The notes under the pieces were generated by a model. The model ran no database searches. It worked only from the letters and a program-made list of their open reading frames with translations, and was not told the origin of the DNA. From a virus (Duplodnaviria > Heunggongvirae > Uroviricota > Caudoviricetes), in the IMG/VR virus record IMGVR_UViG_3300032241_002220, positions 25,376-89,375 of that record: a stretch of DNA of 64,000 bases. The stretch is one strand, 5' to 3'. Both the position numbers and the translations under genes were made by a program. Each line of letters opens with the position of its first letter. Position 1 is the first letter of the stretch. Of this stretch, positions 20,732 through 48,448 are shown piece after piece.

Positions 20732-20744
20732 TTGGTTGTTTAAA

Positions 20745-20780
20745 ACAAGGGTTGTATATTTACAACACGGAAAAAATAAT
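20745..20780 (+). promoter_or_regulatory. promoter-like variant (GGTTGTATATTTACAACACGG)
   Basis: ATG 20781. Confidence 0.35.
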
Positions 20781-25662: not shown

Positions 25663-26799
25663 ATGGAAAATAACAATAGCGTTTGCTTCATAGCAAAAAT
25701 AAACGAAATAAAAGAAATACCGGGAGCCGACAATATCGAACAGGCAATGGTAGGCAACTGGTCTTGCATCATCAAAAAAGGAGCTTATGCTGAAGGTGGT
25801 TTAGTGGTTTGTGCTACTACAGACGCTGTTATACCTGAAGACTTGGCCGAAAAGATGAACGTAACAAACTACTTACGTAAGGGCAACCGTGTGCGTACAG
25901 TAAAGCTTCGTGGTGTTTATTCCGAGTGTTTGGTTATACCTTTTGAAATCGGAGACGTTATGACTAAAGACGAGTTACACGAAGGTAAAGACATGATGGC
26001 TATATTGGGTATTATAAAGTTTGAACCTCCCGTAAAGCAAATTCAACTCGCTTCAGGTAAAAAGATACGCTATAGTGAAAATCCAAATTTTCATATATAT
26101 TATAAATTTCCAAATCTTAAAAACGTATCATGTATGTTTACAGAAGAGGACTCGGTTCAAATCACACGCAAGATACACGGCACTTCATCTAGGTATGGTA
26201 TAGTGAAAAAGAATAAATTATCTTTTTGGGATAAATTCAGAAAGTTCTTTAGGATAGCTAATGAATGGATTGATTACGAGTTTGTAGTAGGTTCACATAA
26301 CGTTGAAAAGGGATCCGATTCTCAAGGTTTCTATGATACAAATGTTTGGTATGAAATAGCCAACAAATATAAGATCAAAGAAAAGCTTTGGGATTATGTA
26401 AAAAAGTATATGTCTTTAGAAGAACTAGGTTCTGGTGTTGTAATATATGGTGAAATCTATGGAGCCGGTATTCAAAAGGGTTATGATTATGGTCTTAAGG
26501 ATATTCAATTTGCTGGATTTGATGTTATGGAAAATGGGCAATATTTGAGTGCATTTAATACTCTTCTTGTTTTAAAATGTATGATAGATTTACCTCATGT
26601 CCCTGTATTATACGATGGTCATTGGTCTCAAGAAATTCAAGATAAGTATGTATTTAATAACTTTATTGAAGGTACAAAAGTACCACACGAAGGTATTGTT
26701 ATCAAGCATACTTCAGGTAATCGTTTTAAAGTCGCAAAAGTGATTAATCCAGACTATTTAATTTATGGAGAAAAACATGATATAGGAGACTCACACTAA
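25663..26799 (+). CDS. Rnl2-family RNA ligase
   Basis: 378 aa. Nucleotidyltransferase motif I RKIHGTSSRYG (T4 Rnl2 has EKIHGTN). GEIYGAGIQKGYDYG parallels Rnl2 GEFAGPGIQKNVDY. Confidence 0.75.
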   Translation: MENNNSVCFIAKINEIKEIPGADNIEQAMVGNWSCIIKKGAYAEGGLVVCATTDAVIPEDLAEKMNVTNYLRKGNRVRTVKLRGVYSECLVIPFEIGDVMTKDELHEGKDMMAILGIIKFEPPVKQIQLASGKKIRYSENPNFHIYYKFPNLKNVSCMFTEEDSVQITRKIHGTSSRYGIVKKNKLSFWDKFRKFFRIANEWIDYEFVVGSHNVEKGSDSQGFYDTNVWYEIANKYKIKEKLWDYVKKYMSLEELGSGVVIYGEIYGAGIQKGYDYGLKDIQFAGFDVMENGQYLSAFNTLLVLKCMIDLPHVPVLYDGHWSQEIQDKYVFNNFIEGTKVPHEGIVIKHTSGNRFKVAKVINPDYLIYGEKHDIGDSH

Positions 26800-29663: not shown

Positions 29664-30704
29664 ATGTCGATTATTAAACAAGGTAGTCAATACACATTTG
29701 CTGATATCACTGCTAGTTATGAAGTACTGCCTAAGGGAGTGTATTTGATGAAACAGGATCAACAGGGAAACTTCTACCTAACACAGAAAGAGGATTTCGT
29801 TATGCCTAAAAAAATCTATGGCGATCATTCCATCACTAAACGTTGGTTGAAGTCATATAATGAGAACTCTGAAAAGAATATGGGTATTATCTTATCTGGT
29901 ATTAAAGGTTCGGGTAAAACCATTACTGCACAACAGTTTTGTATTCAATCAGGCTTACCAGTTGTTATTATTAATGAACCTTTCTCAGGACAGAATTTTG
30001 TTGATTTTTTAACAAACCCTAAACTTGGTAAATGCGTTATTTTCATTGATGAATTTGAAAAGATATATCCTGATAGTGGTAGGGATTCAACTAACGCAAA
30101 CGAGTTGTTGTCTTTGATGGACGGTAACTTCGCAACGCGCCTTATATTTTTACTTACTGTTAACGAGTTCAGGATAAACGAATACCTTGTAAACCGATTA
30201 AACCGTATCAAGTACCGTAAACACTACGAAGATTTAGATGAAAGCGTGGTTAGTGAAGTAATAGAGGATTTGCTTATAAACAAAGCACATACCGACTCCA
30301 TATACCAATTCTTTGATAGGATAAATATGTGTACTTTTGATTTGCTAGTTAATATAATCAAGGAAATGAACTTATTTGGTGAAGATGCTATATCATGTGG
30401 TAAACATCTAAACCTAAAAAGCGAAAATAAGTATTACGAGGTATTTGAAATATTTAAAGGTAAAGAATATCCATGCAATACTATAAATATGTGTGCTGGT
30501 GAAACTGAATTAGAAATTGAAAGAACAACAACTAATTATCTACCAGAACCTGATAAAGATTACCATTATATAACAATATCATTGATAGATTATCCACTTA
30601 AGAAATTATCAAATAAAACATCTATATTAAAAGCTAAAGATGTTGATGGTAAAGATGTGGAATTTAAATTAAAAGCACGTAGTTTTAATACTATGGTATT
30701 TTAA
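29664..30704 (+). CDS. AAA+ ATPase
   Basis: 346 aa. Walker A GIILSGIKGSGKT, Walker B VIFIDEFEK. Confidence 0.6.
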   Translation: MSIIKQGSQYTFADITASYEVLPKGVYLMKQDQQGNFYLTQKEDFVMPKKIYGDHSITKRWLKSYNENSEKNMGIILSGIKGSGKTITAQQFCIQSGLPVVIINEPFSGQNFVDFLTNPKLGKCVIFIDEFEKIYPDSGRDSTNANELLSLMDGNFATRLIFLLTVNEFRINEYLVNRLNRIKYRKHYEDLDESVVSEVIEDLLINKAHTDSIYQFFDRINMCTFDLLVNIIKEMNLFGEDAISCGKHLNLKSENKYYEVFEIFKGKEYPCNTINMCAGETELEIERTTTNYLPEPDKDYHYITISLIDYPLKKLSNKTSILKAKDVDGKDVEFKLKARSFNTMVF

Positions 30705-34523: not shown

Positions 34524-34605
34524 TAGTCAGGTGGTGGAATTGGATAGACACAACCTCGCTCGGAGGTATAAGCGCAAACTTACAGGTTCGAATCCTGTCC
34601 TGACT
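34524..34605 (+). ncRNA. tRNA-like gene (class II architecture) with defective anticodon arm
   Basis: Acceptor AGTCAGG/CCTGACT is perfect. D-arm GTG..CAC. Variable hairpin TAAGCGCAAACTTA. T-arm ACAGGTTCGAATCCTGT. The anticodon stem ACCTC/GAGGT encloses only 5 nt (GCTCG). Confidence 0.4.
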
Positions 34606-34714
34606 ACAGATACTCTAACAGGCGCCAACCTGTCCCTATGGCGGGGCTAAGTAGAGTCAGTATTTTAAAACATAAAAATCAAAAAATAGGGCCTTTGTTT
34701 TTTATTATAATACG

Positions 34715-40075: not shown

Positions 40076-40945
40076 ATGAAAAGGTTTACGTATGTGCTAG
40101 CTCTCGCACTTTCTTTGAGCACTATTTTTTCAATGCAATCTTGTGAACGAATTAGTCCTACTGAGGCTGGTTTTAAGATTAGCAATTCAGGAAATTATCG
40201 CGGTATTGATAGTTTACCACTTTTAACAGGTTGGCAATTTTACACTCCCGGTTTTAATTACATTGTAACCATTCCTACAGTAATGCAACATGAAGTTTGG
40301 ACTGATTCCAAAGAGGGTCAAGAGGGTATGAATGCAATTACAATCGCTTGTATGGGTGGTGCCGGTTTTAGGGTTGATGTTGGTCTAAACTACCACGTTG
40401 ATGCAAATAAAGCTTCCCATATTTACCTTAAATGGAGGAATGATGATCTAAACCAGATTACAAACCAGTATATTAAGAATATTGTTCGTGGTTGTATGCA
40501 AGATGTTTCCGGTCATATTACAGTTGATAGTATTCTAACAAATCTACCGGCTTATGAACATGAAGTTGCATCTAATATAACTAAGAAACTAGGTGCTGAT
40601 GGGTTTATTGTAGACGGTTTTAACATTACATCTCAACCACGTCCTACAGATGCTAACTTGGCTGCTTCAATCAACGCTAAGGTAAAAGCAAAACAGGATG
40701 CCGAAACCTCGGTTATGGAACTACAAAAATCAATTGCTGAAGCAAACAAGAAAATTGCTGATGCTCGTGGTGATAGCGCCTCTAAGGTAATCGAATCAGC
40801 TGGTGAAGCCGCAGCTATACGTTTGAAACAACAAGTGGTTACACCAACATATGTTGAGTATATCAAAGCTAGTTCTTGGGACGGTAAATTACCAAGTGTT
40901 ATGACTGGTTCTGGTGGTACAATGTTGAATATAAGTACAAAATAA
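40076..40945 (+). CDS. lipoprotein with SPFH/band-7-like domain
   Basis: 289 aa. Lipobox FSMQSC. Central region resembles prohibitin/stomatin. Ala/Lys-rich coiled-coil C-terminus. Confidence 0.4.
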   Translation: MKRFTYVLALALSLSTIFSMQSCERISPTEAGFKISNSGNYRGIDSLPLLTGWQFYTPGFNYIVTIPTVMQHEVWTDSKEGQEGMNAITIACMGGAGFRVDVGLNYHVDANKASHIYLKWRNDDLNQITNQYIKNIVRGCMQDVSGHITVDSILTNLPAYEHEVASNITKKLGADGFIVDGFNITSQPRPTDANLAASINAKVKAKQDAETSVMELQKSIAEANKKIADARGDSASKVIESAGEAAAIRLKQQVVTPTYVEYIKASSWDGKLPSVMTGSGGTMLNISTK

Positions 40946-42029: not shown

Positions 42030-42102
42030 GGTGCCTAAGCTAATCTGGTGAAAGCGCTAGACTGAAAATCTAGAGAGATAGGGTCGAAACCTATAGGTAC
42101 CA
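42030..42102 (+). tRNA. tRNA-Phe (GAA)
   Basis: Acceptor GGTGCCT/AGGTACC. Anticodon stem CTAGA/TCTAG with loop CTGAAAA. Confidence 0.75.
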
Positions 42103-42172
42103 CAAAAACATAAAAATGAAACGAAAACAGTAACGCCGCTCTGAAATACGAGTGGCATAATAGAAATAAAAT

Positions 42173-42245
42173 GCGCTCGTAGCTCAATTGGTAGAGTAGC
42201 TGGCTTTTAACCAGCGGGTTGTAGGTTCGAACCCTACCGGGCGCA
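42173..42245 (+). tRNA. tRNA-Lys (TTT)
   Basis: GCGCTCG...TAGCTCAATTGGTAGAG. Anticodon stem GCTGG/CCAGC, loop CTTTTAA. T-arm GTAGGTTCGAACCCTAC. Confidence 0.85.
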
Positions 42246-42263
42246 CTTAAAAATATAACACAG

Positions 42264-42338
42264 ACGCGTGTGTAGCTCAATTTGGTAGAGTGTCGGTCTC
42301 CAAAACCGAAGATGAGGGTTCGAGTCCCTACATGCGTG
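42264..42338 (+). tRNA. tRNA-Trp (CCA)
   Basis: Anticodon stem TCGGT/ACCGA, loop CTCCAAA. T-loop TTCGAGT. Confidence 0.8.
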
Positions 42339-42345
42339 CAAGATT

Positions 42346-42418
42346 GCCTTCATAGTTCAATGGATTAGAACACTTGGCTACGGACCAAGAAATAGGAGTT
42401 CGAATCTCTTTGAAGGTA
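42346..42418 (+). tRNA. tRNA-Arg (ACG)
   Basis: Acceptor GCCTTCA/TGAAGGT. Anticodon stem CTTGG/CCAAG, loop CTACGGA. Confidence 0.8.
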
Positions 42419-42423
42419 CAAAA

Positions 42424-42496
42424 GGTCAAATGGCCGAGATGGCGTAGGCGTATGTCTGCAAAACATACCACAACAGTTCGAATCTGTTTTTGACCT
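42424..42496 (+). tRNA. tRNA-Cys (GCA)
   Basis: Acceptor GGTCAAA/TTTGACC. Anticodon stem TATGT/ACATA, loop CTGCAAA. T-arm AACAGTTCGAATCTGTT. Confidence 0.8.
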
Positions 42497-42506
42497 CTTA
42501 AAAAAA

Positions 42507-42560
42507 ATGTTTGGCTACCTAAAAAAACAGTCGTACATTTAAGTATAAGAAGATCTTTGA
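42507..42560 (+). promoter_or_regulatory. tRNA-array internal promoter (TTTGGCTACCTAAAAAAACAGTCGTACATTTAAGTATAAGAAG)
   Basis: Same -33/-7 architecture, 20 nt 5' of tRNA-Pro. Confidence 0.55.
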
Positions 42561-42579
42561 CATATTGGGATTAATTCAA

Positions 42580-42656
42580 TCGAGAGGTCGGGCAGATGGT
42601 TATACCCGCGTGCTTTGGGAGCACGATATCGCTGGTTCGAATCCAGTTCTCTCGAC
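42580..42656 (+). tRNA. tRNA-Pro (TGG)
   Basis: Acceptor TCGAGAG/CTCTCGA. Anticodon stem CGTGC/GCACG, loop TTTGGGA. T-loop TTCGAAT. Has its own promoter-like motif upstream. Confidence 0.75.
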
Positions 42657-42663
42657 ATAAAAT

Positions 42664-42738
42664 GGGCTGGCATGTTCCAAGGCTTGGCGATTCTCCTTTG
42701 CACGGAGAGTGTGAAGAGTTCGATTCTCTTCTGGTCCA
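42664..42738 (+). tRNA. tRNA-Ala (TGC), atypical D region
   Basis: Anticodon stem TCTCC/GGAGA, loop TTTGCAC. T-arm AAGAGTTCGATTCTCTT. The acceptor needs 3 G-U pairs. Confidence 0.5.
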
Positions 42739-42743
42739 CATTC

Positions 42744-42814
42744 AGTCCCTTAGCTCAACGGAAGAGCGCTTGTTTTACATGCAAGAGGCTGTGATATCGT
42801 AATTCACAGGGACT
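42744..42814 (+). tRNA. tRNA-Val (TAC)
   Basis: Acceptor AGTCCCT/AGGGACT. D-arm GCTC..GAGC. Anticodon loop TTTACAT. T-loop ATCGTAA. Confidence 0.7.
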
Positions 42815-42891
42815 ACTCATGGTTTATTAGTATACAATGTCAATCATAGGAACTAATATTGGAGTTATACCAATTAAAAAATATAACAAAC

Positions 42892-42963
42892 GCAGATATC
42901 GTATAGCGGTTATTACTCTGGTCTTCCAAACCGGAGACGTCGGTTCGATTCCGACTATCTGCT
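42892..42963 (+). tRNA. tRNA-Gly (TCC)
   Basis: Acceptor GCAGATA/TATCTGC. Anticodon loop CTTCCAA. T-arm GTCGGTTCGATTCCGAC. Confidence 0.85.
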
Positions 42964-42968
42964 CTTAT

Positions 42969-43041
42969 AGTCCAATGATGTAACTGGCAACATGGCGTGT
43001 TTTGAGCTCGCTCTTCTAGGTTCGAATCCTGGTTGGACTAC
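42969..43041 (+). tRNA. tRNA-Gln (TTG)
   Basis: Acceptor AGTCCAA/TTGGACT. D-stem ATGT/ACAT. Anticodon loop TTTTGAG. T-arm CTAGGTTCGAATCCTGG. Confidence 0.75.
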
Positions 43042-43045
43042 ATTT

Positions 43046-43135
43046 GGAAGCATAGCCTAATTGGTAAGACAGCAGTCTTGAAAACTGCCGTGTCGGTGAT
43101 GAATCGGCTTATAGGTTCGAGTCCTATTGCTTCCG
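43046..43135 (+). tRNA. tRNA-Ser (TGA), class II
   Basis: Acceptor GGAAGCA/TGCTTCC. Anticodon stem GCAGT/ACTGC, loop CTTGAAA. About 22-nt variable arm. T-arm ATAGGTTCGAGTCCTAT. Confidence 0.85.
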
Positions 43136-43488
43136 CTAAAATAAACTAGACACTGTAAAAACCAGTGGTTGACTTAATAACTATAGGAGTAATTACCTAT
43201 GTATGCGAACAGCAATTAATCCTGACAGCAATGTTTATTTTAATATGGGTCTTTAAGCTTTAAGGTGAAGCGCATGTTTGTGGAGCATGAGAACTCGGTT
43301 CAATACCGTGATGGACCCCAACAAGGAAAGTAAAGCAACGAGGTTGTTGCCACCACCTGCTAAGTGAGTGGATCATTAAATTGATTGTGTTTCGACTACA
43401 CTGCTTTCCGCGAAATCCAATGTGTGCTGCTGCTAGCCGGAGACACAAAACAGAAGTGAAGGAACTGTTCCACATTTGGATTTTTATT

Positions 43489-43561
43489 GGAGATATAGTA
43501 GAATGGTTCAGCACACCTGTCTGATACGCAGGTAATCCAAGTTCGAGTCTTGGTATCTCCA
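43489..43561 (+). tRNA. tRNA-Ile (GAT)
   Basis: Acceptor GGAGATA/TATCTCC. Anticodon loop CTGATAC. T-arm CCAAGTTCGAGTCTTGG. Confidence 0.8.
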
Positions 43562-43571
43562 CTTATAAATT

Positions 43572-43644
43572 GGACTTGTAGCTCAGAGGCAGAGCAGGCG
43601 GCTGTTAACCGTCAGGTCGGTGATTTCGAAATTCCCCAAGTCCG
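43572..43644 (+). tRNA. tRNA-Asn (GTT), degenerate T-arm
   Basis: Acceptor GGACTTG/CAAGTCC is perfect. D-arm GCTC..GAGC. Anticodon loop CTGTTAA. T-stem pairs poorly (GGTGA TTTCGAA ATTCC). Confidence 0.55.
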
Positions 43645-43651
43645 CAAAATT

Positions 43652-43740
43652 GAGAGTAAGGTAACTATTGGTTGGTTATCAACGGCTGTAACCCGTCAGG
43701 CCCAGAAAGGGGGTAGGTTCGATTCCTACTACTCTCACCA
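43652..43740 (+). tRNA. tRNA-Tyr (GTA), class II, CCA encoded
   Basis: Acceptor GAGAGTA/TACTCTC followed by A-CCA. Anticodon loop CTGTAAC. Variable arm CCCAGAAAGGG. T-arm GTAGGTTCGATTCCTAC. Confidence 0.75.
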
Positions 43741-43761
43741 AAATAAAAAAACTTCTTAAAA

Positions 43762-43820
43762 AGAGGTTGGCTTATAGAAATCTTGTTCGTATATTTAGGT
43801 ATAAGAAAAAAGATAAGAAG
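43762..43820 (+). promoter_or_regulatory. tRNA-array internal promoter (TTGGCTTATAGAAATCTTGTTCGTATATTTAGGTATAAGAAAAAAGATAAGAAG)
   Basis: After tRNA-Tyr, before the second tRNA sub-cluster. Confidence 0.5.
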
Positions 43821-43835
43821 CTCTTTGAAAATATT

Positions 43836-43910
43836 GAAACTGTGGTAATAAGTTGAGTTACTTCGTATGGCTTATATAAAATGAACTCACTTAAGCATTC
43901 CCGGTTAAAA
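43836..43910 (+). repeat. conserved hairpin element copy 1 (GTAATAAGTTGAGTTACTTCGT ... AACTCACTTAAGC)
   Basis: A near-identical 22-nt arm recurs at 44622. Stem AAGTTGAGTT/AACTCACTT. Confidence 0.5.
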
Positions 43911-43941
43911 TCATTTAGGTGGTTAATTAGAAAGTTACTTC

Positions 43942-44015
43942 GCACGAATAGTTCAATGGTTGAACATTTTCATATCCAGAAAAAGTAACGGGTTCAATTC
44001 CCGTTTCATGCCCCA
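43942..44015 (+). tRNA. tRNA-like gene with non-standard anticodon loop ATATCCA (anticodon ATC?), CCA encoded
   Basis: Acceptor GCACGAA/TTCATGC (one C-A mismatch) + C-CCA. Canonical D-arm TAGTTCAATGGTTGAAC. Anticodon stem TTTTC/GAAAA. T-arm ACGGGTTCAATTCCCGT. Confidence 0.45.
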
Positions 44016-44067
44016 AAAAAACTTTCTTAAACATTCCCCTAAACTTATTTGATGAATAGTAAGGACC

Positions 44068-44145
44068 AGCGTTACTTCGCGTGCAAGGTGCACATTTAAA
44101 TTTGGCTTTTAAAAATCGCGGTTCAATTCCGCCTGAAACGCTACC
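44068..44145 (+). ncRNA. degenerate tRNA-like element ending in ACCA
   Basis: T-arm GCGGTTCAATTCCGC and a terminal ...GAAACGCTACCA. 5' AGCGTTA pairs with AAACGCT, but the D/anticodon region (GTGCAAGGTGCAC hairpin) does not fold as a tRNA. Confidence 0.3.
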
Positions 44146-44168
44146 AATGTTCTTTCATCATTTTTTAT

Positions 44169-44241
44169 GTTCCTGAGGACAAAATGGTTGAGTCGTCACC
44201 CTTTCAAGGTGAAGGAGCGGGATCGTTACCCGTCAGGAATA
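44169..44241 (+). tRNA. tRNA-Glu (TTC)
   Basis: Acceptor GTTCCTG/CAGGAAT (one G-U). Anticodon stem TCACC/GGTGA, loop CTTTCAA. T-arm GCGGGATCGTTACCCGT. Confidence 0.7.
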
Positions 44242-44247
44242 CAACAA

Positions 44248-44318
44248 GGTCTATTAGTGAATTGGTATCATATCTCACTGTCTATGAGAAGTGCTCGGAT
44301 CGTAACCGTGATAGACCG
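44248..44318 (+). tRNA. tRNA-Asp (GTC)
   Basis: Acceptor GGTCTAT/ATAGACC. Anticodon stem TCTCA/TGAGA, loop CTGTCTA. T-loop ATCGTAA. Confidence 0.7.
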
Positions 44319-44327
44319 CCAACAAAT

Positions 44328-44400
44328 GCTTCTATAGCTCAATGGTCAGAGCAGGACGCTTATATCGTCAAGGCTACAGGTTCGAGTCCTGTTAGAAGTA
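44328..44400 (+). tRNA. tRNA-Ile (TAT) (AUA-reading, UAU anticodon)
   Basis: Acceptor GCTTCTA/TAGAAGT. D-arm GCTC AATGGTCA GAGC. Anticodon loop CTTATAT with U33 and A37. T-arm ACAGGTTCGAGTCCTGT. Confidence 0.65.
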
Positions 44401-44417
44401 CTAAAAACAAAAATAAA

Positions 44418-44609
44418 ATGAAAAAAATAGTAATCTACAAAGATGTAGAAAATGTAAACGGTAAAAAAGAACGTCATATTCTTCGTTCAATCCAGCCTAG
44501 TTATGATTGGCAAGGATATGCGAAAAATAAAAACAGTATGATAGATTCTGAAGTTAGGAATTTAGCACGTGCTTTAGAACCTAGTTTTACAGGATTCTAT
44601 GTAGCATAA
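44418..44609 (+). CDS. hypothetical small protein
   Basis: MKKIVIYKDVENVNGKK... The track ORF 44184..44609 starts inside tRNA genes, so it is trimmed to the first ATG after tRNA-Ile(TAT). Confidence 0.4.
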   Translation: MKKIVIYKDVENVNGKKERHILRSIQPSYDWQGYAKNKNSMIDSEVRNLARALEPSFTGFYVA

Positions 44610-44621
44610 AGATATTTGCTG

Positions 44622-44690
44622 TAGTAATAAGTTGAGTTACTTCGTCTGACTTTTTAATTCATAAATGAAAAAACAACTCACTTAAACTTT
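44622..44690 (+). repeat. conserved hairpin element copy 2 (GTAATAAGTTGAGTTACTTCGT ... AACTCACTTAAAC)
   Basis: Second copy, upstream of the tRNA-Met/Thr/Arg/Leu sub-cluster. Confidence 0.5.
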
Positions 44691-44712
44691 CTCAGTAAAC
44701 TTATTTTAAAAT

Positions 44713-44787
44713 TGTGGGATGCGTAGAAAATGGTTATCTCGTCAGTCTCATAAGCTGAAGTTCCCGGTTCAAGTCCGGGTCCCGCAA
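44713..44787 (+). tRNA. tRNA-Met (CAT)
   Basis: Acceptor TGTGGGA/TCCCGCA (one G-U). Anticodon stem TCAGT/GCTGA, loop CTCATAA. T-arm CCCGGTTCAAGTCCGGG. Confidence 0.7.
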
Positions 44788-44911
44788 CATAAGTCCTTGA
44801 TCAGGAACCGAAGATATGGTCGGCCTCTTGTGTAAACAATGCACACTGCTACCATCTAAACCGTAGGTTAGCACAGTTCACAACTCTGGGGATATTTTAA
44901 AAGTTGTATTT

Positions 44912-44986
44912 GGACGCATAGTTTAGTTGGAAAAACACTTGCCTTGTAAGCATGAGTTCTCGGGTCGGTTCCGGGTGTGTCCTCCA
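44912..44986 (+). tRNA. tRNA-Thr (TGT), CCA encoded, unusual T-loop
   Basis: Acceptor GGACGCA/TGTGTCC + T-CCA. Anticodon loop CTTGTAA (stem has one U-U). T-arm CTCGG GTCGGTT CCGGG. Confidence 0.6.
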
Positions 44987-44991
44987 CGCAT

Positions 44992-45064
44992 GGTTCTATC
45001 GTTCAATGGATTAGGACAATTGCCTTCTAAGCAATTTATGCTGGTTCGAATCCAGCTAGAACTA
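44992..45064 (+). tRNA. tRNA-Arg (TCT)
   Basis: Acceptor GGTTCTA/TAGAACT. Anticodon stem ATTGC/GCAAT, loop CTTCTAA. T-arm GCTGGTTCGAATCCAGC. Confidence 0.85.
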
Positions 45065-45070
45065 CAACCC

Positions 45071-45152
45071 GCTCCGATGGTGTAATTGGCAGCCACGCTA
45101 GACTTAGGATCTAGTGTCGTAAGACGTAAGGGTTCGAGTCCCTTTTGGAGCA
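45071..45152 (+). tRNA. tRNA-Leu (TAG), class II
   Basis: Acceptor GCTCCGA/TTGGAGC. Anticodon stem CTAGA/TCTAG, loop CTTAGGA. Variable hairpin GTCGTAAGACG. T-arm AAGGGTTCGAGTCCCTT. Confidence 0.8.
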
Positions 45153-45162
45153 CTTAACAAAA

Positions 45163-45248
45163 TATTTGGCTAAGCAAAAAATTGGTCTTATATTTACGAC
45201 ATAATAAAGCAATTAAAAATTCTCTAACAATAAAAAATTAGTAGTAAA
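45163..45248 (+). promoter_or_regulatory. promoter for the Ro60-like gene (TTTGGCTAAGCAAAAAATTGGTCTTATATTTACGACATAATAAAG)
   Basis: ATG 45249. Confidence 0.5.
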
Positions 45249-46790
45249 ATGGCACGTTACAATTCAAAAGCAACAACAGTTACTCCAACAGTAACAAACC
45301 ACCAAGGTGGAACAGGGTACAAATACGACCCAAAAACAGAATTAATCTCAATATTAGCAACAGGCTTGGATAACAAGTATTATGAAAAAGTAGGTGAACG
45401 TGAACAACGTTTGGCCAAAGTCATAGAAGAAGTAGCTAAAAAAGACAAACTATTTGCTGCAAAAGCTCTAGTGTATGCTCGTACCGTAATGGGACAAAGA
45501 ACAGTAACACACTTTGGTGCTGTAGAATTAGCTAAAGTATTAGGAGGTGATTCTCTAGGTTCTCGTTTCTTTTCAAAGCGTGAACGTAAACAAAACAAAG
45601 GTGGTATTATCTTCCGTTTGGATGATATGCTTGAAATTGCTGCTTGTTATCAAGCACGTAATGAAGGTAAACCATTTTCAAATGCAATCAAGAAAGGTTT
45701 TAAATCCGCTCTTGAATCAGCAGATGAATATGAATTAGCTAAATATCAAGCTAAAAATCGCGATTTATCTTTAGTTGACATCGTTAACTTAGTACACCCA
45801 AAACCATCACCAAGAATGGCTCCAGTGTTTGCTAAATTGATGAAAGGTGAACTTAAACAGTTTAATACTGTAGAAGATAAAAATACTAAAGCTGGTCAAG
45901 AAGTTGCTGCTAAAGTAAAAGAAGGTAAAATTACTAAAGAAGAAGCAGCAGTTGAATTAGCGCAAGCTAAAGAAGACAACTATGCCGAATTGATTAAAAC
46001 ACGTAAAATCGGTTATTTAGCTTTATTACGTAATTTACGCAATATTCTAAAAACAGGTGCCGATAAAGAAATTATAAACGGTGCTTGTGAACTATTAACT
46101 GATCAAAAGTTAATTAAACAATCTTTAGTGTTTCCACACCAAATAGATTTAGCATTAGAAATAATGTTGGATGAATTTGGTTCAAGTAAAGTTAAACCAT
46201 TTGTTAAAGCATTAAACACCGCTTACGAACTAGCGATACCAAACCTAACAGAATTATTTCCAAATGGCCGCACAGCGGTTGTATTTGACAGTTCAGGTTC
46301 AATGTCAACATCTATTAGTTTAGCTAATAAAAATAATGGTTCAGAATCAGCCATTTCAAAAGCAGCATTAATTGCCGCTACTTTAGCTAAAGGTATTGAA
46401 GCCGATGTTTATCACTTTGCTGATCGTTGTGATGAAATCAAGTTTAACCCACTTGATACAGTTAACACACTTAAGAATCAATTTTTAAATAAACAAGGTT
46501 CAGTTGGTTATGGTACTGCCTTTGCCAGTATTATGAAAAAATTAGGTGATCAATATGACCGTGTGTTTGTAATATCGGATATGCAAGGTAGTGATTATCT
46601 TGAAAGAGCTAATTACAAAAATCTTCACATATATTCAATCGATATTGCCGGTTATGGTACAACAATGTTCAAACCAGGAAACAAAGTTTATTCATTGTTT
46701 GGTTATTCTGCCGATATTTATGAATTGATAAAGAAAGTGGAAATCGATCCAAAAGCGTTAATCGCCGAAATCGAAGCAATAGAAATTTAA
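45249..46790 (+). CDS. rsr: Ro60-like TROVE domain + vWA domain RNA-binding protein
   Basis: 513 aa. N-terminal QGGTGYKYDPKTELISILATGLDNKYYE resembles the TROVE signature. C-terminal TAVVFDSSGSMS is a vWA MIDAS DxSxS. Domain order as in Ro60/Rsr. Confidence 0.6.
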   Translation: MARYNSKATTVTPTVTNHQGGTGYKYDPKTELISILATGLDNKYYEKVGEREQRLAKVIEEVAKKDKLFAAKALVYARTVMGQRTVTHFGAVELAKVLGGDSLGSRFFSKRERKQNKGGIIFRLDDMLEIAACYQARNEGKPFSNAIKKGFKSALESADEYELAKYQAKNRDLSLVDIVNLVHPKPSPRMAPVFAKLMKGELKQFNTVEDKNTKAGQEVAAKVKEGKITKEEAAVELAQAKEDNYAELIKTRKIGYLALLRNLRNILKTGADKEIINGACELLTDQKLIKQSLVFPHQIDLALEIMLDEFGSSKVKPFVKALNTAYELAIPNLTELFPNGRTAVVFDSSGSMSTSISLANKNNGSESAISKAALIAATLAKGIEADVYHFADRCDEIKFNPLDTVNTLKNQFLNKQGSVGYGTAFASIMKKLGDQYDRVFVISDMQGSDYLERANYKNLHIYSIDIAGYGTTMFKPGNKVYSLFGYSADIYELIKKVEIDPKALIAEIEAIEI

Positions 46791-46813
46791 AATTTTCCAA
46801 TAAAGTAAAATGA

Positions 46814-46838
46814 CTGGGTGTTTCTACACCCGGTTTTT
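46814..46838 (+). terminator. rho-independent terminator after the Ro60-like gene
   Basis: CTGGGTG-tttcta-CACCCGG + TTTTT. Confidence 0.65.
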
Positions 46839-47035
46839 ATTTAAAGTTCTTTGAAATATTATACTATAGTAAGGGTTTGTGAGGTACTTCGTATTTATAA
46901 ACTAGCTTAGAAATAAGCATTTTAATTATACACATATCAGATAAAAACCTCGTACTAGGTGCCTCTTGAAAATAACCAACAACAAGAGCAAATAAGTACA
47001 AACTCACCCCAGTAATCTTAGTATATTTTTTTTTT

Positions 47036-47120
47036 GCCTGGGTGTCGTAAAGGTAGCCGAGGTGGACTTAAAATCCACTGAACTGTAAGGTTCGTGCGGG
47101 TTCGATTCCCGCTCCAGGTA
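47036..47120 (+). tRNA. tRNA-Leu (TAA), class II
   Basis: Anticodon stem GTGGA/TCCAC, loop CTTAAAA. Variable hairpin GAACTGTAAGGTTC. T-arm GCGGGTTCGATTCCCGC. Acceptor GCCTGGG/TCCAGGT has G-U at both ends. Confidence 0.75.
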
Positions 47121-47122
47121 CT

Positions 47123-47584
47123 ATGAAAAAAGCAATTTATCTAGACGACGTCAGAACACCAATCAATGGTGATGTTGAATGGATTGTGGTTAGAAATTAT
47201 AATGAATTTGTATCTAAAGTTCAAGAAATTGGATTGGAAAATATTGATGTAATTTCTTTAGATCATGATCTTGGGGATAGTGCTATGAATGAATATTTTA
47301 AAAATGTTGCTCCTAATTATACTTTGGATTACAATAATATTACCGAAAAAACGGGATATGATTGTGCAAAATGGTTAGTTGAATATTTTTATATAAAAAA
47401 TCCTAATTGGAAATATAAAAGTAGAGATGTTAAACAAGGAAGTCTATTTCGATTTCCAAAAGTATTTACCCATTCAGCTAATCCTATAGGTTCAGCTAAT
47501 ATTATGGGTTATATAAATAATTTTTTAATGAATGAAGTTCAAAGCCAAACCTGTGTAAGAGTTCAAATTCAACACACAATTTAA
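47123..47584 (+). CDS. hypothetical protein
   Basis: 153 aa. ATG 3 nt after tRNA-Leu(TAA). Confidence 0.5.
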   Translation: MKKAIYLDDVRTPINGDVEWIVVRNYNEFVSKVQEIGLENIDVISLDHDLGDSAMNEYFKNVAPNYTLDYNNITEKTGYDCAKWLVEYFYIKNPNWKYKSRDVKQGSLFRFPKVFTHSANPIGSANIMGYINNFLMNEVQSQTCVRVQIQHTI

Positions 47585-47595
47585 AAATTTATGAA

Positions 47596-48051
47596 ATGAA
47601 ACAGTTTAAAACATTAAGCGCTCATAGAAAAGTCGACTTAATACCATACATAAGAGAATATGTTGCTAATCATCCAGAAACAGAAGTTTTAATTGGTTGT
47701 GACTCTCAAAACAGAAAAAAAGAAACTGTTTATGCTATTGTGGTAGGTTTATATACACCTGGAAAAGGCGCTCACGTTTTGTATTCTAAATTTTTTATTC
47801 AACGTGAACGAGATAACGTAGTTCGTTTATTAAACGAAGTATGGAATTCTGTTGAAACCGCAGAACAAATTAAAAATGAAATAGGAATAAAAGCAACTTG
47901 GATTGATATTGACTTAAACCCAGATCCAAAATATCGTTCAAACCAAGCACTGGCGAGTGCAGTTGGTGTTGTAACAGGTATGGGTTATAATGTAAGACAT
48001 AAAGGTAATTCACCTGTTATGACTTATGCAGCAGATCATCTTGTTAAATAA
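47596..48051 (+). CDS. hypothetical protein
   Basis: 151 aa. Stop 2 nt before the tmRNA 5' end. Confidence 0.5.
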   Translation: MKQFKTLSAHRKVDLIPYIREYVANHPETEVLIGCDSQNRKKETVYAIVVGLYTPGKGAHVLYSKFFIQRERDNVVRLLNEVWNSVETAEQIKNEIGIKATWIDIDLNPDPKYRSNQALASAVGVVTGMGYNVRHKGNSPVMTYAADHLVK

Positions 48052-48052
48052 C

Positions 48053-48448
48053 GGGGTCGACCGGTTTTGACAGCAATTGAAGTAGAGAAAGATGATGCAG
48101 GCAGTGTTAGTATTGGAAACACTTAAATAACCTATACAAACAATAAACGCAAACGTAGAATTATCTACTTGGACAATCGAAGATGCTTTGGCATTTGTAG
48201 ATGGTGAATTCGCACTAGCTGCCTAGTTCACCCAGGGGCTTCACACACGCGCCTTGCAACAGAAGTGTATTTAAAAAGGAACTAAGAGGCTTACCTTTTC
48301 AAAAAAGAGTACTCGGTAGGTTTTCAGTCCCAATCGTCCGAGAAGCGGAACTGGTATTTTGTCTAGTTAGAAAACGAGACTAAGCCTGTGAATGAGTCGA
48401 TTTAGACTTATTGTTTGGACGGGAGTTCGACTCTCCCCGACTCCACAA
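48053..48448 (+). ncRNA. ssrA: tmRNA (ssrA)
   Basis: 5' GGGGTCG pairs with 3' CGACTCC-A. The 3' tRNA-like domain GGACGGGAGTTCGACTCTCCCCGACTCCAC matches the tmRNA TLD consensus. Internal reading frame 48149-48226 encodes ANVELSTWTIEDALAFVDGEFALAA then TAG, the characteristic ...ALAA-stop tag. No overlapping CDS on either strand. Confidence 0.8.

What the first reader, a model, noticed from the sequence alone, without database searches (positions are those of the whole stretch)
43942..44145. Two non-canonical tRNA-like genes with genomically encoded CCA and a shared TTACTTCGC leader
The element at 43942-44015 has a perfect D-arm, T-arm and C-CCA end. Its 7-nt anticodon loop reads ATATCCA, giving anticodon ATC with A34, which is essentially unknown outside tRNA-Arg. 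The element at 44068-44145 has a T-arm and ACCA end but no foldable anticodon arm. Both start right after GTTACTTCGC. They could be Y-RNA-like decoys, suppressor or recoding tRNAs, or anti-defence tRNA mimics rather than decoding tRNAs. tRNA-Tyr and tRNA-Thr also carry encoded CCA while most others do not.
Basis: seen in the sequence. Interest (0 to 1): 0.7.

Follow-up and report, generated by a model that had tools for sequence, protein, structure and literature searches.

The report
Phage Ro60-linked tRNA-mimic Y RNAs
The two odd "tRNA genes" are real, conserved RNAs that most likely act as tRNA-shaped partner RNAs (Y RNAs) of a Ro60-type RNA-binding protein encoded 1.1-1.3 kb downstream in the same phage, not as decoding tRNAs; this kind of RNA is known, but this version has an unusual layout.

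Summary
Both elements exist. Element 1 (43942-44015) is a cloverleaf with anticodon ATC and an encoded CCA (ARAGORN; Rfam tRNA, 49 bits). Element 2 (44068-46) fails every tRNA detector. It still folds as a cloverleaf-like RNA, and its anticodon-like arm does fold.

Each element sits at the tip of a conserved scaffold: a helix with a bulged U, a U-R-G-U-R-A motif, a second helix, then GUUACUUCG. Two insert-less copies lie at 43838-43906 and 44615-44699. Compensatory changes in related phages support all helices.

"Anticodon" and discriminator differ between close orthologues (ATC/TTC/TCC; C/U/A). Scaffold-embedded tRNA-likes have 18% GC anticodon stems, against 56% for neighbouring tRNAs.

A full-length Ro60/Rsr (TROVE) gene lies at 45249-46790 on the same strand. 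The motif recurs next to very divergent phage Rsr genes, nearly always on the Rsr strand. TROVE is the commonest non-mobile gene family near motif-selected loci. Permuted family members and Bacillus phage G give sub-threshold Rfam YrlA matches.

Verdict: a divergent phage branch of YrlA-like Y RNAs with non-permuted, CCA-bearing tRNA modules. Rsr binding and function are inferred, not shown. This is a new variant of a known kind, of moderate interest.

The parts
43838..43906 (+). Unit A: scaffold copy without a tRNA module. Layout: P1a AACUG, bulged U43843, P1b GG, internal loop UAAUAAG.., P2 UGAGUU, GUUACUUCG at 43857-43865, an 18-nt apical loop, then the 3' strands AACUCA ... CC-CGGUU.
   Evidence: The repeat family with 44619-44652 is 91% identical. 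There is an exact motif copy. The unconstrained MFE fold gives the common architecture.
43916..44041 (+). Unit B: scaffold carrying element 1. Layout: P1 UAGG-U-GG (43916-43922) with CC-CCUA (44036-44041); P2 AGAAAGUU (43929-43936) with AACUUUCU (44020-44027); motif GUUACUUCG at 43934-43942.
   Evidence: MFE fold, z = -2.3. In alignment A2, 97% of cells are paired and 6 of 35 pairs have compensatory changes, including in P1 and P2. Slid controls give 46-62% paired and 0-1 compensatory.
43942..44015 (+). Element 1: a complete tRNA-like cloverleaf inside unit B. It has a 7-bp acceptor with a C4.A69 mismatch, a D arm, an A-U-rich anticodon stem UUUUC/GAAAA, the loop AUAUCCA, a T arm, C73 and an encoded CCA.
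   Evidence: ARAGORN calls tRNA-Asp(atc). Rfam tRNA scores 49 bits. Orthologues read TTC (L004, L009) and TCC (L007), with discriminators U and A.
44050..44160 (+). Unit C: scaffold carrying element 2. Layout: P1 UGAUGAA-U-AG (44050-44059) with CU-UUCAUCA (44152-44160); P2, the acceptor-like helix, AGCGUU (44068-44073) with AACGCU (44137-44142); motif at 44071-44079.
   Evidence: In alignment A1 of 5 distinct sequences, 98% of cells are paired and 10 of 30 pairs have compensatory changes, with 0 of 500 shuffles reaching this. Slid controls give 41-50% paired and 0-1 compensatory.
44068..44146 (+). Element 2: cloverleaf-like tRNA mimic. Layout: 6-bp acceptor-like helix, 7-nt linker ACUUCGC, hairpin GUGCA-AGG-UGCAC in the D-arm position (GG in the loop), A-U stem UUUAAA/UUUAAA with loop UUUGGCU, T arm GCGG-UUCAAUU-CCGC, 4-nt linker, A73, CCA.
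   Evidence: The MFE equals the centroid cloverleaf. There is covariation in every helix. The loop size and sequence vary in relatives (7, 7 and 9 nt). No Rfam or ARAGORN hit.
44615..44699 (+). Unit D: scaffold copy without a tRNA module (CUG-U-AG ... CU-CAG; P2 UGAGUU/AACUCA; motif at 44636-44644; 30-nt apical loop). The weak tRNA-Met-like gene at 44720-44787 follows it.
   Evidence: It is conserved in L004/L009 (94%) and L007 (76%).
46867..46965 (+). Possible degenerate fifth copy (UAGUAAG ... GGUACUUCG at 46883-46891; GAGGU/ACCUC). The membership is doubtful.
   Evidence: It is a 1-mismatch motif hit. The MFE fold does not reproduce the family architecture, and the descriptor score is weak.
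45249..46790 (+). Rsr / Ro60 orthologue (513 aa, TROVE domain). It is the inferred protein partner of units A-D.
   Evidence: Pfam TROVE, E 1.8e-11. It matches Thermus phage phiLo Ro60 over its full length (9KOP/9L5Y, residues 16-502, E 4e-18) and X. laevis Ro60 1YVP. No terminator-like site lies between the units and the gene, apart from a terminator-like match at 44081-44093 that is hairpin 1 of element 2 itself. The first true one downstream is at 46812-46835.

Best explanation
Elements 1 and 2 are the tRNA-mimic modules of two Y-RNA-like non-coding RNAs. These belong to a divergent, phage-borne branch of the YrlA/Yrn1 kind. Their partner is the phage Ro60 orthologue (Rsr) encoded 1.1-1.3 kb downstream on the same strand.

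Each RNA has two parts. The first is a conserved scaffold: a basal helix with a bulged U, a 5' U-R-G-U-R-A motif, a second helix ending in GUU/AAC, and a junction ACUUCG. The second is an apical module, which can be nothing (units A and D), a cloverleaf-like mimic that uses the scaffold helix as its acceptor (element 2), or a full cloverleaf with its own acceptor and CCA (element 1).

Shown computationally:
- the structures and their compensatory evolution;
- the lack of constraint on anticodon and discriminator;
- the genomic coupling of the motif to Rsr genes;
- the weak similarity of permuted family members to the Rfam YrlA model.

Inferred by analogy with Ro60-Y RNA complexes:
- Rsr binds the scaffold, through the bulged helix and the conserved 5'-strand motif.
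- The tRNA-shaped end is handled by tRNA enzymes: RNase P at G43942 of element 1, with the CCA ends kept or repaired. This parallels M. smegmatis YrlA.
- The tRNA-shaped end tethers Rsr to an effector or substrate.

Speculative: the role is tRNA or RNA quality control or repair during infection, or decoying host tRNA-targeting nucleases. The phage also carries an RNA ligase, a cRec phosphoesterase-type domain protein, about 25 tRNAs and a tmRNA.
For: 1. A TROVE/Ro60 gene lies at 45249-46790 on the same strand. The Y-RNA criterion of Chen et al. 2014 (PMC4201824) is location within 4 kb of rsr on the same strand.

2. All helices of both units, including the flanking scaffold helices, keep pairing through compensatory changes. 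This rules out decay.

3. The 'anticodon' of element 1 is ATC, TTC or TCC in orthologues, and its discriminator is C, U or A. The loop of element 2 is 7, 7 or 9 nt, and its discriminator is A or C. The same switching occurs in other orthologue pairs: L012 Leu-tag versus L013 Pro-tgg, and L024 Ile-gat versus L026 Arg-tct.

4. I compared 33 scaffold-embedded tRNA calls with 707 other tRNAs from the same loci. Anticodon-stem GC is 18% versus 56%. Purine-37 is 85% versus 98%. U33 is 88% versus 96%.

5. The exact 9-mer GTTACTTCG is present in 25 of 29 Rsr-selected loci (redundant fetches included), always on the Rsr strand. This includes loci whose Rsr is only 27-29% identical. The 7-mer TACTTCG occurs 103 times on the Rsr strand and 11 times on the opposite strand. 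18 of 24 non-redundant Rsr loci have a copy, often within 500 nt upstream.

6. In the reverse test, 25 of 119 loci picked only by the RNA motif contain a TROVE gene within the partial stretch held, and all 25 are on the same strand. TROVE is the top non-mobile protein cluster there. The base rate of TROVE is 96 of 50,697 phage records.

7. In gut phage csAssE-Sib, three units plus Rsr form an isolated module between structural genes.

8. Unconstrained folds of units from distant phages give the same architecture. 34% of 59 Rsr-locus instances reach at least 15 perfectly stacked scaffold pairs, against 3.9% of shuffles.

9. There are sub-threshold links to Rfam YrlA. Full-length hits fall on motif units: L022 at 33.3 bits and L149 at 28.5 bits. 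In Bacillus phage G, named as a Y-RNA phage in the literature, UUACUUCG lies directly 5' of a T-AS-D core that matches YrlA (36.2 bits), upstream of its Rsr.
Against: - There is no binding, expression or processing data. The Rsr partnership rests on genomic association and analogy.
- The literal YrlA motif GNCGAAN0-1G is absent from the units.
- The Rfam YrlA model does not hit any window unit, even at E<=10 with lax filters.
- 94 of 119 motif-selected loci show no TROVE gene in the stretch held. Those stretches are truncated and some motif matches must be chance, but the scaffold might also work without Rsr.
- Some Rsr phages lack the motif: crAss001, cr111_1, L015, L016 and L021 have no copy at all; Vibrio phiKT1024 has only copies several kb away with no recognisable scaffold context.
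- Some embedded modules elsewhere have canonical-looking loops, for example Lys CUUUUAA, and could still decode.
- In L009 element 2 is disrupted by an HNH endonuclease insertion, so it is dispensable in at least one lineage.
Confidence: 0.7

Rival explanations
1. They are genuine decoding tRNAs with unusual anticodons. Element 1 would be a tRNA-Asp(AUC) reading GAU in an AT-rich genome, or a suppressor or recoding tRNA. Element 2 would be a structurally odd tRNA-Pro(UGG).
For: Element 1 scores 49 bits with the Rfam tRNA model and has canonical D and T loops, U33 and an encoded CCA. The L007 orthologue has a fully canonical Gly loop, CUUCCAA. ARAGORN calls the L004 orthologue of element 2 tRNA-Pro.
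Against: - The anticodon and discriminator change between orthologues whose Rsr is 80-87% identical.
- C37 is present in both elements.
- Element 2 has a 6-bp acceptor with 7-nt and 4-nt linkers, no D-loop consensus, and no tRNA-model hit at E<=10.
- The phage already has canonical Asp(GTC), Glu(TTC), Gly(TCC) and Pro(TGG) genes and a full 20-amino-acid set.
- The anticodon stems are A-U only, as in the whole scaffold-embedded class.
- The conserved flanking helices are unexplained by this reading.
Confidence: 0.07
2. They are decaying tRNA pseudogenes, duplicates left in a fast-evolving tRNA cluster.
For: The anticodon loops are odd, the specificities are redundant, there is an acceptor mismatch in element 1, and element 2 is disrupted in L009.
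Against: Compensatory double substitutions keep 97-98% of cells paired in every helix, with 10 of 30 and 6 of 35 pairs covarying. The leader motif and scaffold are conserved in phages whose Rsr is under 30% identical.
Confidence: 0.04
3. The repeats are cis-acting transcription or processing signals of the tRNA cluster, such as promoters or RNase III/E sites flanking pre-tRNAs, with no link to Rsr.
For: Unit A contains a sigma-70-like match, TTGAGT-18-TAAAAT, at 43853-43882. Units A and D precede tRNA-like genes by about 85 nt. Leader-trailer helices are typical processing sites (established knowledge). Most motif-selected loci show no TROVE gene in the stretch held.
Against: - The promoter scan is at background level: 24 found versus 21 expected.
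- Helices covary, which promoters do not need.
- In the window the scaffold flanks only the two non-canonical elements, not the roughly 25 canonical tRNAs.
- In csAssE-Sib the units form an isolated module with Rsr.
- The motif is strand-locked to Rsr.
Confidence: 0.12
4. They are stand-alone anti-defence decoys for host tRNA-cleaving nucleases, or nuclease-resistant tRNA variants, and act without Rsr.
For: The anticodon loops evolve rapidly while the fold is kept. Embedded modules in gut phages mimic Lys and Tyr, which I recall to be known targets of anticodon nucleases; this was not tested here. The phage carries RNA-repair genes.
Against: This does not explain the conserved scaffold or its coupling to Rsr. 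No nuclease target motif was identified. It overlaps with the main explanation as a possible function and is not a full alternative.
Confidence: 0.1

Closest known systems
YrlA (Rfam RF02553), the tRNA-like bacterial/phage Y RNA bound by Rsr (Chen et al. 2014, PMC4201824; structure preprint 10.1101/312249)
   Same: It is encoded near rsr and on the same strand. The 5' and 3' ends pair into a stem with bulges. A conserved purine-rich motif sits in the 5' strand, followed by a YUAY element. The tRNA-like module has a canonical T arm. Several Y RNAs occur per locus, some of them plain hairpins (YrlB-like). The Rfam alignment places YrlA's GNCGAA opposite U-AG-UR-A, and its CUAC opposite the UUAC of GUUACUUCG.
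   Different: YrlA is a circularly permuted tRNA (V-T-AS-D) with a closed acceptor loop, no anticodon loop and no CCA. Elements 1 and 2 have the normal order with an anticodon-like arm and an encoded CCA. The GNCGAA motif is replaced by U-R-G-U-R-A. The extended GUUACUUCG junction is invariant. There is no Rfam hit for the window units.
Deinococcus radiodurans Yrn1
   Same: The T and D elements are in the tRNA-like (non-permuted) orientation. The 5'/3' stem takes the acceptor position. There is an 'anticodon arm' with a non-standard loop. This is the topology of element 2.
   Different: Yrn1 keeps both strands of the metazoan-type Ro-binding helix (GGUCCGA-like). It has no full D arm and no encoded CCA after an acceptor-like helix. 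No sequence similarity was detected.
Mycobacterium smegmatis YrlA (RNase P-cleaved, CCA-added halves that stay bound to Rsr)
   Same: It is a Y RNA whose tRNA module has a 7-bp acceptor, is a substrate for RNase P and carries a CCA end. This is the best precedent for what element 1, with its 7-bp acceptor and CCA, would undergo.
   Different: In M. smegmatis the module is permuted and the CCA is added after cleavage. In the window a whole tRNA-like molecule with genomic CCA is nested between the scaffold strands, so processing would release it.
Thermus phage phiLo Ro60 with Yrl1/Yrl2 (PMC12135203; PDB 9KOP, 9L5Y)
   Same: It is a phage-encoded Ro60 with two Y-RNA-like genes immediately upstream, and binding was shown in vitro. 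The window's Rsr aligns with phiLo Ro60 over its full length.
   Different: Yrl1 and Yrl2 were identified by a CGAA motif in a large internal bulge and are not described as tRNA cloverleaves. The window units lack CGAA.
Canonical phage-encoded tRNAs (Rfam RF00005)
   Same: They share the cloverleaf, the T and D loop consensus, and the location in a tRNA cluster.
   Different: In the window elements the anticodon and discriminator are unconstrained, position 37 is C, the anticodon stems are A-U only, and a conserved leader-trailer scaffold is present. Element 2 is not recognised by the model.

Membership tests
YrlA-type Y RNA (RF02553) | Encoded within about 4 kb of an rsr/TROVE gene on the same strand | tested here: met
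   Element 1 lies 1.3 kb and element 2 1.1 kb upstream of the TROVE ORF 45249-46790, all on the + strand.
YrlA-type Y RNA (RF02553) | The 5' and 3' ends pair into a long stem with a bulge or internal loop (the Ro-binding stem) | tested here: met
   P1 (with bulged U) and P2 flank both elements. They are supported by compensatory changes and recur in distant phages.
YrlA-type Y RNA (RF02553) | GNCGAAN0-1G motif near the 5' end | tested here: not met
   There is no + strand GNCGAA within units A-D (43838-44699); the nearest + strand matches are 42083, in a tRNA T arm, and 45984, inside the Rsr ORF. The aligned position carries U-R-G-U-R-A: UGGUUA in unit B and UAGUAA in units C and D.
YrlA-type Y RNA (RF02553) | tRNA-like T arm and D arm with conserved loop nucleotides | tested here: met
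   Element 1 has both (49 bits to the tRNA model). Element 2 has a canonical T loop, UUCAAUU, but only a 5-bp hairpin with GG in the loop at the D position.
YrlA-type Y RNA (RF02553) | Circularly permuted order (T - closed acceptor-like stem-loop - D), with no anticodon loop and no free CCA | tested here: not met
   Both elements have the standard order with an anticodon-like arm and an encoded CCA. Permuted members do exist in the same scaffold family, namely L022, L149 and phage G.
YrlA-type Y RNA (RF02553) | Score at or above the Rfam gathering threshold (69 bits) | tested here: not met
   There is no YrlA hit on units A-D at E<=10. Related units score 28-36 bits. Phage G also stays below threshold.
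YrlA-type Y RNA (RF02553) | Bound and stabilised by Rsr in vivo | not testable with these tools
   This needs RIP, EMSA or northern blots.
Elongator tRNA (RF00005) | Cloverleaf matching the covariance model | tested here: inconclusive
   Element 1 meets it (49 bits). Element 2 does not (no hit at E<=10).
Elongator tRNA (RF00005) | Anticodon and discriminator conserved among orthologues; U33 and purine 37 | tested here: not met
   The anticodon is ATC, TTC or TCC and the discriminator C, U or A. C37 is present in both elements. The loop of element 2 is 7-9 nt in relatives.
Elongator tRNA (RF00005) | Aminoacylation and use on the ribosome | not testable with these tools
   From general knowledge of E. 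coli identity elements, element 1 lacks G73 (Asp) and U73 (Gly). This is inference only.
tRNA pseudogene | Neutral decay: substitutions break helices and there is no compensatory change | tested here: not met
   97-98% of cells are paired, and 10 of 30 and 6 of 35 pairs have changes on both sides.
Yrn1-type Y RNA (D. radiodurans) | Metazoan-like Ro-binding helix (GGUCCGA-type, both strands) plus a non-permuted T/AC arrangement | tested here: inconclusive
   The topology is met by element 2 (description). The Ro-binding sequence is not present. No model of Yrn1 was available to score.

The most novel reading that the evidence does not exclude
The window shows a widespread, so far undescribed phage class of Ro60-associated RNAs. 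It occurs in freshwater-type large phages, a 634-kb huge phage and the gut phage csAssE-Sib, whose Rsr is 52% identical to that of crAss-like phage cr111_1. In this class a complete, CCA-bearing tRNA-like molecule is caged between the strands of a Ro-binding scaffold.

RNase P and 3' processing would release or expose the tRNA mimic while Rsr holds the scaffold. The resulting RNP would intercept host tRNA-targeting nucleases, or present damaged tRNAs to the phage RNA-repair enzymes. Its fast-changing anticodon loops would then be the signature of an arms race.
Probability: 0.2. Interest if true: 0.8.

Novelty: new variant of a known kind. Interest (0 to 1): 0.58.

Why it matters
- **Annotation.** The result changes how such genes should be annotated. 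ARAGORN, and GenBank records such as OR575929 (tRNA-Tyr and tRNA-Lys next to 'Ro sixty-related protein'), call these modules ordinary tRNAs. Their evolution says they are structural mimics.

- **Reach of the family.** It extends the Ro60/Y-RNA system in phages well beyond what the Rfam YrlA model can see. It also supplies a simple, strand-locked signature: U-R-G-U-R-A, then 8-9 nt, then GUUACUUCG. This gives a family-wide set of natural variants: no module, T arm only, permuted tRNA or full tRNA. These can be used to test what the tRNA-like end of bacterial Y RNAs is for, which is still an open question.

- **Biology.** The link to RNA ligase, a cRec domain protein, tmRNA and large tRNA sets suggests a role in RNA quality control or anti-defence during infection.

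Tried and rejected
- **GenBank phages.** A DNA search of the region found no relative, only a 55-nt tRNA match.
- **Rfam.** I searched at gathering, at E<=10 and on a 900-nt sub-window. Nothing hit element 2 and there was no YrlA hit in the window.
- **GNCGAA.** The literal motif search was at background, with none in the units.
- **RNAduplex.** Comparing the 5' arm against 290 nt downstream and against upstream control sequence was uninformative in this AT-rich DNA (-18.6 versus -17.1 kcal/mol). I replaced it with an explicit descriptor and shuffles.
- **Exact-protein lookup of Rsr.** Not on record.
- **Candidate unit at 30108-30177.** A generic descriptor found it, but I rejected it. It lies inside the AAA-ATPase ORF and lacks the 5' consensus.
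- **Copy at 46883.** I kept it only as 'possible', because its fold does not match the family.
- **Promoter reading of units A and D.** The scan is at background.
- **Cultured phages with the motif.** Bacillus phage G has it, and so does csAssE-Sib (a genome from the human gut, no host recorded). crAss001 and cr111_1 have no copy. Vibrio phiKT1024 has only copies several kb from Rsr with no scaffold context.
- **Reviews.** Two reviews on bacterial Ro60 were not held.
- **Literature.** Searches found no prior description of the GUUACUUCG scaffold. This is absence in the held library only.
- **Not done.** I did not build a covariance model of the scaffold.
Full report
**Setting**

The window is AT-rich (about 30% GC) and phage-like. 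It carries a baseplate gene, thymidylate synthase, NAD-salvage genes and an RNA ligase. A dense + strand cluster of about 25 tRNA genes spans 42030-47121, followed by a tmRNA at 48053-48448.

Near-identical (99%) and graded relatives exist only among uncultured IMG/VR contigs.

**Checking the observation**

Element 1 (43942-44015) is called tRNA-Asp(atc) by ARAGORN and scores 49 bits with the Rfam tRNA model. The sequence and fold show:
- a 7-bp acceptor with one C4.A69 mismatch;
- a normal D arm and T arm;
- an all-but-one A-U anticodon stem;
- the loop AUAUCCA (U33, A34, C37);
- C73 and a genomic CCA.

Element 2 is missed by ARAGORN and by every Rfam family, even at E<=10 on a 900-nt sub-window. 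Folded from 44068 to 44146, its minimum-energy and centroid structures are both a cloverleaf-like shape:
- helix AGCGUU/AACGCU followed by A-CCA;
- a 7-nt linker (ACUUCGC);
- hairpin GUGCA-AGG-UGCAC;
- stem UUUAAA/UUUAAA with loop UUUGGCU;
- T arm GCGG-UUCAAUU-CCGC;
- a 4-nt linker.

The leader's GUU is part of its acceptor-like helix.

The shared 9-mer GTTACTTCG is real. There are four exact copies, all on the + strand, within 800 nt, plus one 1-mismatch copy at 46883. There are no other exact copies in the 64 kb.

Encoded CCA is present in Tyr and Thr as stated, and also in Asp(GTC).

**A repeated scaffold**

The other two exact copies of the motif lie in a 34-nt repeat: 43840-43873 and 44619-44652, 91% identical. 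Unconstrained folds of the four regions give one architecture:
- a basal helix P1a;
- a bulged U;
- a 2-bp P1b;
- an asymmetric internal loop that starts U(A/G)A on the 5' side and ends UU on the 3' side;
- a second helix P2 that ends GUU on the 5' strand and starts AAC on the 3' strand;
- single-stranded ACUUCG;
- an apical insert.

The insert is 18 nt in unit A (43838-43906) and 30 nt in unit D (44615-44699). In unit B (43916-44041) it is the whole of element 1. In unit C (44050-44160) it is three hairpins; there P2 itself, followed by ACCA, plays the acceptor.

**Comparative evidence for structure, and against decoding**

Element 2 is conserved in relatives whose Rsr is 80-87% identical. 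Over five distinct sequences, 98% of cells are paired and 10 of 30 pairs carry changes on both sides. This covers all five helices, including P1 and P2. No shuffle out of 500 reaches this, and slid controls fall to 41-50% paired with 0-1 compensatory pairs.

Element 1, with its scaffold, gives 97% paired and 6 of 35 compensatory pairs, including in P1 and P2.

The parts that define a decoding tRNA are not conserved:
- The anticodon of element 1 reads ATC in the window, TTC in L004/L009 and TCC in L007. Its discriminator is C, U or A.
- The loop of element 2 is UUUGGCU, UUUUGGU or the 9-nt AAUUAGGAC. Its discriminator is A or C.
- The same switching is seen in other orthologous pairs of scaffold-embedded modules: L012 Leu-tag versus L013 Pro-tgg, and L024 Ile-gat versus L026 Arg-tct.

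As a class, 33 scaffold-embedded tRNA calls differ from 707 other tRNAs of the same loci:

| Measure | Scaffold-embedded | Other tRNAs |
|---|---|---|
| Anticodon-stem GC | 18% | 56% |
| Purine at position 37 | 85% | 98% |
| U33 | 88% | 96% |

The phage already has canonical Asp, Glu, Gly and Pro tRNAs and a complete 20-amino-acid set. The elements are therefore selected for shape, not for an anticodon. They are neither pseudogenes nor ordinary decoders.

The ORF at 45249-46790, on the same strand and 1.1-1.3 kb downstream, has a TROVE domain. It aligns over its full length with the Ro60 of Thermus phage phiLo (9KOP/9L5Y, E 4e-18) and with X. laevis Ro60.

No real terminator-like site separates it from the units. 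The one match in between, at 44081-44093, is hairpin 1 of element 2 itself, and the first true terminator-like site lies after the gene, at 46812-46835.

Directly downstream are a cRec (cyclic-phosphate-processing receiver) protein, an RNase H-like protein and the tmRNA.

Ro60 orthologues (Rsr) bind Y RNAs. In bacteria and in 22 phages the Y RNA YrlA is encoded within 4 kb of rsr on the same strand. It has a Ro-binding stem formed by its ends and a tRNA-like domain (PMC4201824).

**Coupling of the scaffold motif to Rsr**

Starting from the protein, the exact 9-mer occurs in 25 of 29 Rsr-selected loci (redundant fetches included) and always on the Rsr strand. This includes loci whose Rsr is only 27-29% identical. 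The 7-mer TACTTCG is found 103 times on the Rsr strand and 11 times on the other.

18 of 24 non-redundant Rsr loci have a copy, often within 500 nt upstream. An extended 5' consensus emerges: U-R-G-U-R-A, 8-9 nt, GUUACUUCG.

Starting from the RNA, I scanned IMG/VR with TAGTRA-N8-9-GTTACTTCG. 25 of them contain a TROVE gene in the partial stretch held, and all 25 are on the motif strand, many within a few hundred bases.

TROVE is the commonest non-mobile protein family in these loci. The only comparably frequent families are GIY-YIG and HNH homing endonucleases. For scale, only 96 of 50,697 GenBank phage records have any match to this protein.

In the gut phage csAssE-Sib, three units and the 'Ro sixty-related protein' form an isolated module between a muzzle protein and a tail lysozyme. 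Two of the units are annotated tRNA-Tyr and tRNA-Lys.

A 634-kb uncultured phage has two units, with GAUACUUCG, 350-440 nt upstream of its Rsr.

Unconstrained folds of units from these distant phages reproduce the P1/bulge/P2 architecture. A strict descriptor with no mismatches allowed finds at least 15 stacked scaffold pairs in 34% of 59 Rsr-locus instances, against 3.9% of shuffles.

**Relation to known Y RNAs**

YrlA is a circularly permuted tRNA: V, T, closed acceptor-like stem-loop, D. It has no anticodon loop and no CCA, and it has a GNCGAAN0-1G motif near its 5' end. The window units do not contain GNCGAA and get no YrlA hit.

However, members of the same scaffold family whose apical module is permuted give full-length sub-threshold YrlA matches: L022 12460-12571 at 33.3 bits and L149 5511-5615 at 28.5 bits. 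The alignment places YrlA's GNCGAA opposite U-AG-UR-A, and YrlA's conserved CUAC opposite the UUAC of GUUACUUCG.

Bacillus phage G is named in the literature as a phage with Y-RNA-like RNAs. It has UUACUUCG directly 5' of a T-AS-D core that matches YrlA (36.2 bits, below the 69-bit gathering score). It also has a second CUACUUCG copy. Both lie upstream of its Rsr, in a tRNA-tmRNA cluster much like the window's.

The scaffold is therefore best seen as a divergent phage branch of the YrlA kind that the Rfam model cannot reach.

Elements 1 and 2 differ from YrlA in having the normal tRNA order, an anticodon-like arm and a genomic CCA. Element 2 has the topology described for D. radiodurans Yrn1. 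Element 1 recalls M. smegmatis YrlA, which RNase P cleaves and which carries CCA. The difference is that here a whole tRNA-like molecule is nested in the scaffold.

**How it most likely works**

- Shown computationally: the folds, their compensatory evolution, the unconstrained anticodons, and the coupling to Rsr.
- Inferred: the units are transcribed with the tRNA cluster and Rsr. Rsr binds the bulged helix and 5'-strand motif, as Ro60 does on Y RNAs. The tRNA-shaped end is recognised by tRNA enzymes (RNase P at G43942 in unit B; CCA maintenance) and tethers Rsr to an effector or substrate.
- Speculative: a role in tRNA or RNA surveillance or repair, or in decoying host tRNA nucleases. This fits the phage's RNA ligase (25663-26799), phosphoesterase, cRec protein, tmRNA and large tRNA set.

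**Caveats**

- There are no experimental data.
- Most motif-selected loci show no TROVE gene in the truncated stretch held, and some of those matches must be chance.
- Some Rsr phages have no copy of the motif (crAss001, cr111_1); Vibrio phiKT1024 has only distant copies with no scaffold context.
- Some embedded modules elsewhere look like usable tRNAs.
- Element 2 is interrupted by an HNH endonuclease gene in L009.
- I found no earlier description of this scaffold in the held literature. That library is incomplete.

**Verdict**

The finding is real and conserved. It is best explained as Ro60-partner tRNA mimics, a new variant of a known kind. Confidence is about 0.7 for the Y-RNA reading and higher, about 0.85, for 'not ordinary decoding tRNAs or pseudogenes'.

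Noticed in passing
window 45249-48448 and 25663-26799: An RNA quality-control and repair gene set surrounds the tRNA cluster: Ro60/Rsr (TROVE), a cRec (cyclic-phosphate-processing receiver) protein at 47123-47584, an RNase H-like PF04308 protein at 47596-48051, a tmRNA at 48053-48448, and an RNA ligase with a PHA02142 OB fold at 25663-26799. There is also a metallophosphoesterase (20736-21464) and NAD-salvage genes.
   Followed up: partly
L009 ~829-1560 (relative of the window): An HNH homing-endonuclease ORF of about 735 bp is inserted where the GTTACTTCG motif should be. It removes the 5' part of element 2 and duplicates the start of the next tRNA-Glu. GIY-YIG (25 loci) and HNH (10 loci) endonucleases are the other families enriched near the motif. 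The invariant motif may serve as a homing target.
   Followed up: partly
L011 3519-3933, L012 3913-4328, L013 4489-4905: GOLLD RNAs (Rfam, 277-288 bits) lie 1-2 kb upstream of Rsr in the phages whose Rsr is 58% identical. Scaffold units and odd tRNA-like calls with 2-base 'anticodons' follow them directly.
   Followed up: no
window 43320-43488: A 169-nt gap between tRNA-His and tRNA-Ile folds very stably (MFE -42 kcal/mol). It is partly conserved in L007 and L014 (about 75% over 70-90 nt). No Rfam family matches it.
   Followed up: partly
window 42030-42102, 42663-42739, 44169-44241, 44720-44787: Several tRNA genes are missed by one or both detectors. Phe(GAA), Glu(UUC) and a weak Met-like CAU gene (33.7 bits, poor acceptor and D arm) are found only by Rfam. 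A tRNA-Ala(UGC)-like cloverleaf with an odd D arm at about 42663-42739 is found by neither, but is 88% conserved in L004.
   Followed up: partly
L149 (GenBank OR575929.1) 5666-5738 and 5811-5884: The annotated tRNA-Tyr and tRNA-Lys next to the 'Ro sixty-related protein' are scaffold-embedded modules. The 'Tyr' is 73 nt with no long variable arm and has the loop AGGUAAA (G at position 33), so it is unlikely to be a working bacterial-type tRNA-Tyr.
   Followed up: partly
window 44328-44401: There is a high-scoring tRNA-Ile with anticodon UAU (68 bits), a rare way of reading AUA, next to a canonical Ile(GAU) gene.
   Followed up: no
window 44418-44609: A 63-aa ORF with no Pfam match sits inside the tRNA cluster, between tRNA-Ile(UAU) and unit D. 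It is conserved at 75% nucleotide identity in L004.
   Followed up: no
window 34525-34607: An isolated 83-nt tRNA-Glu(ctc) is called by ARAGORN only. It lies 7.5 kb from the cluster and is not supported by Rfam at gathering.
   Followed up: no
window 40076-40945 and 23658-25202; L152, L153: Rsr-encoding phages share some neighbours. An SPFH/Band-7 protein is found in the window and as crAss001 Gp91. A nicotinate/nicotinamide phosphoribosyltransferase is found in the window and in cr111_1. Bacillus phage G, like the window, places Rsr inside a tRNA-tmRNA cluster.
   Followed up: no
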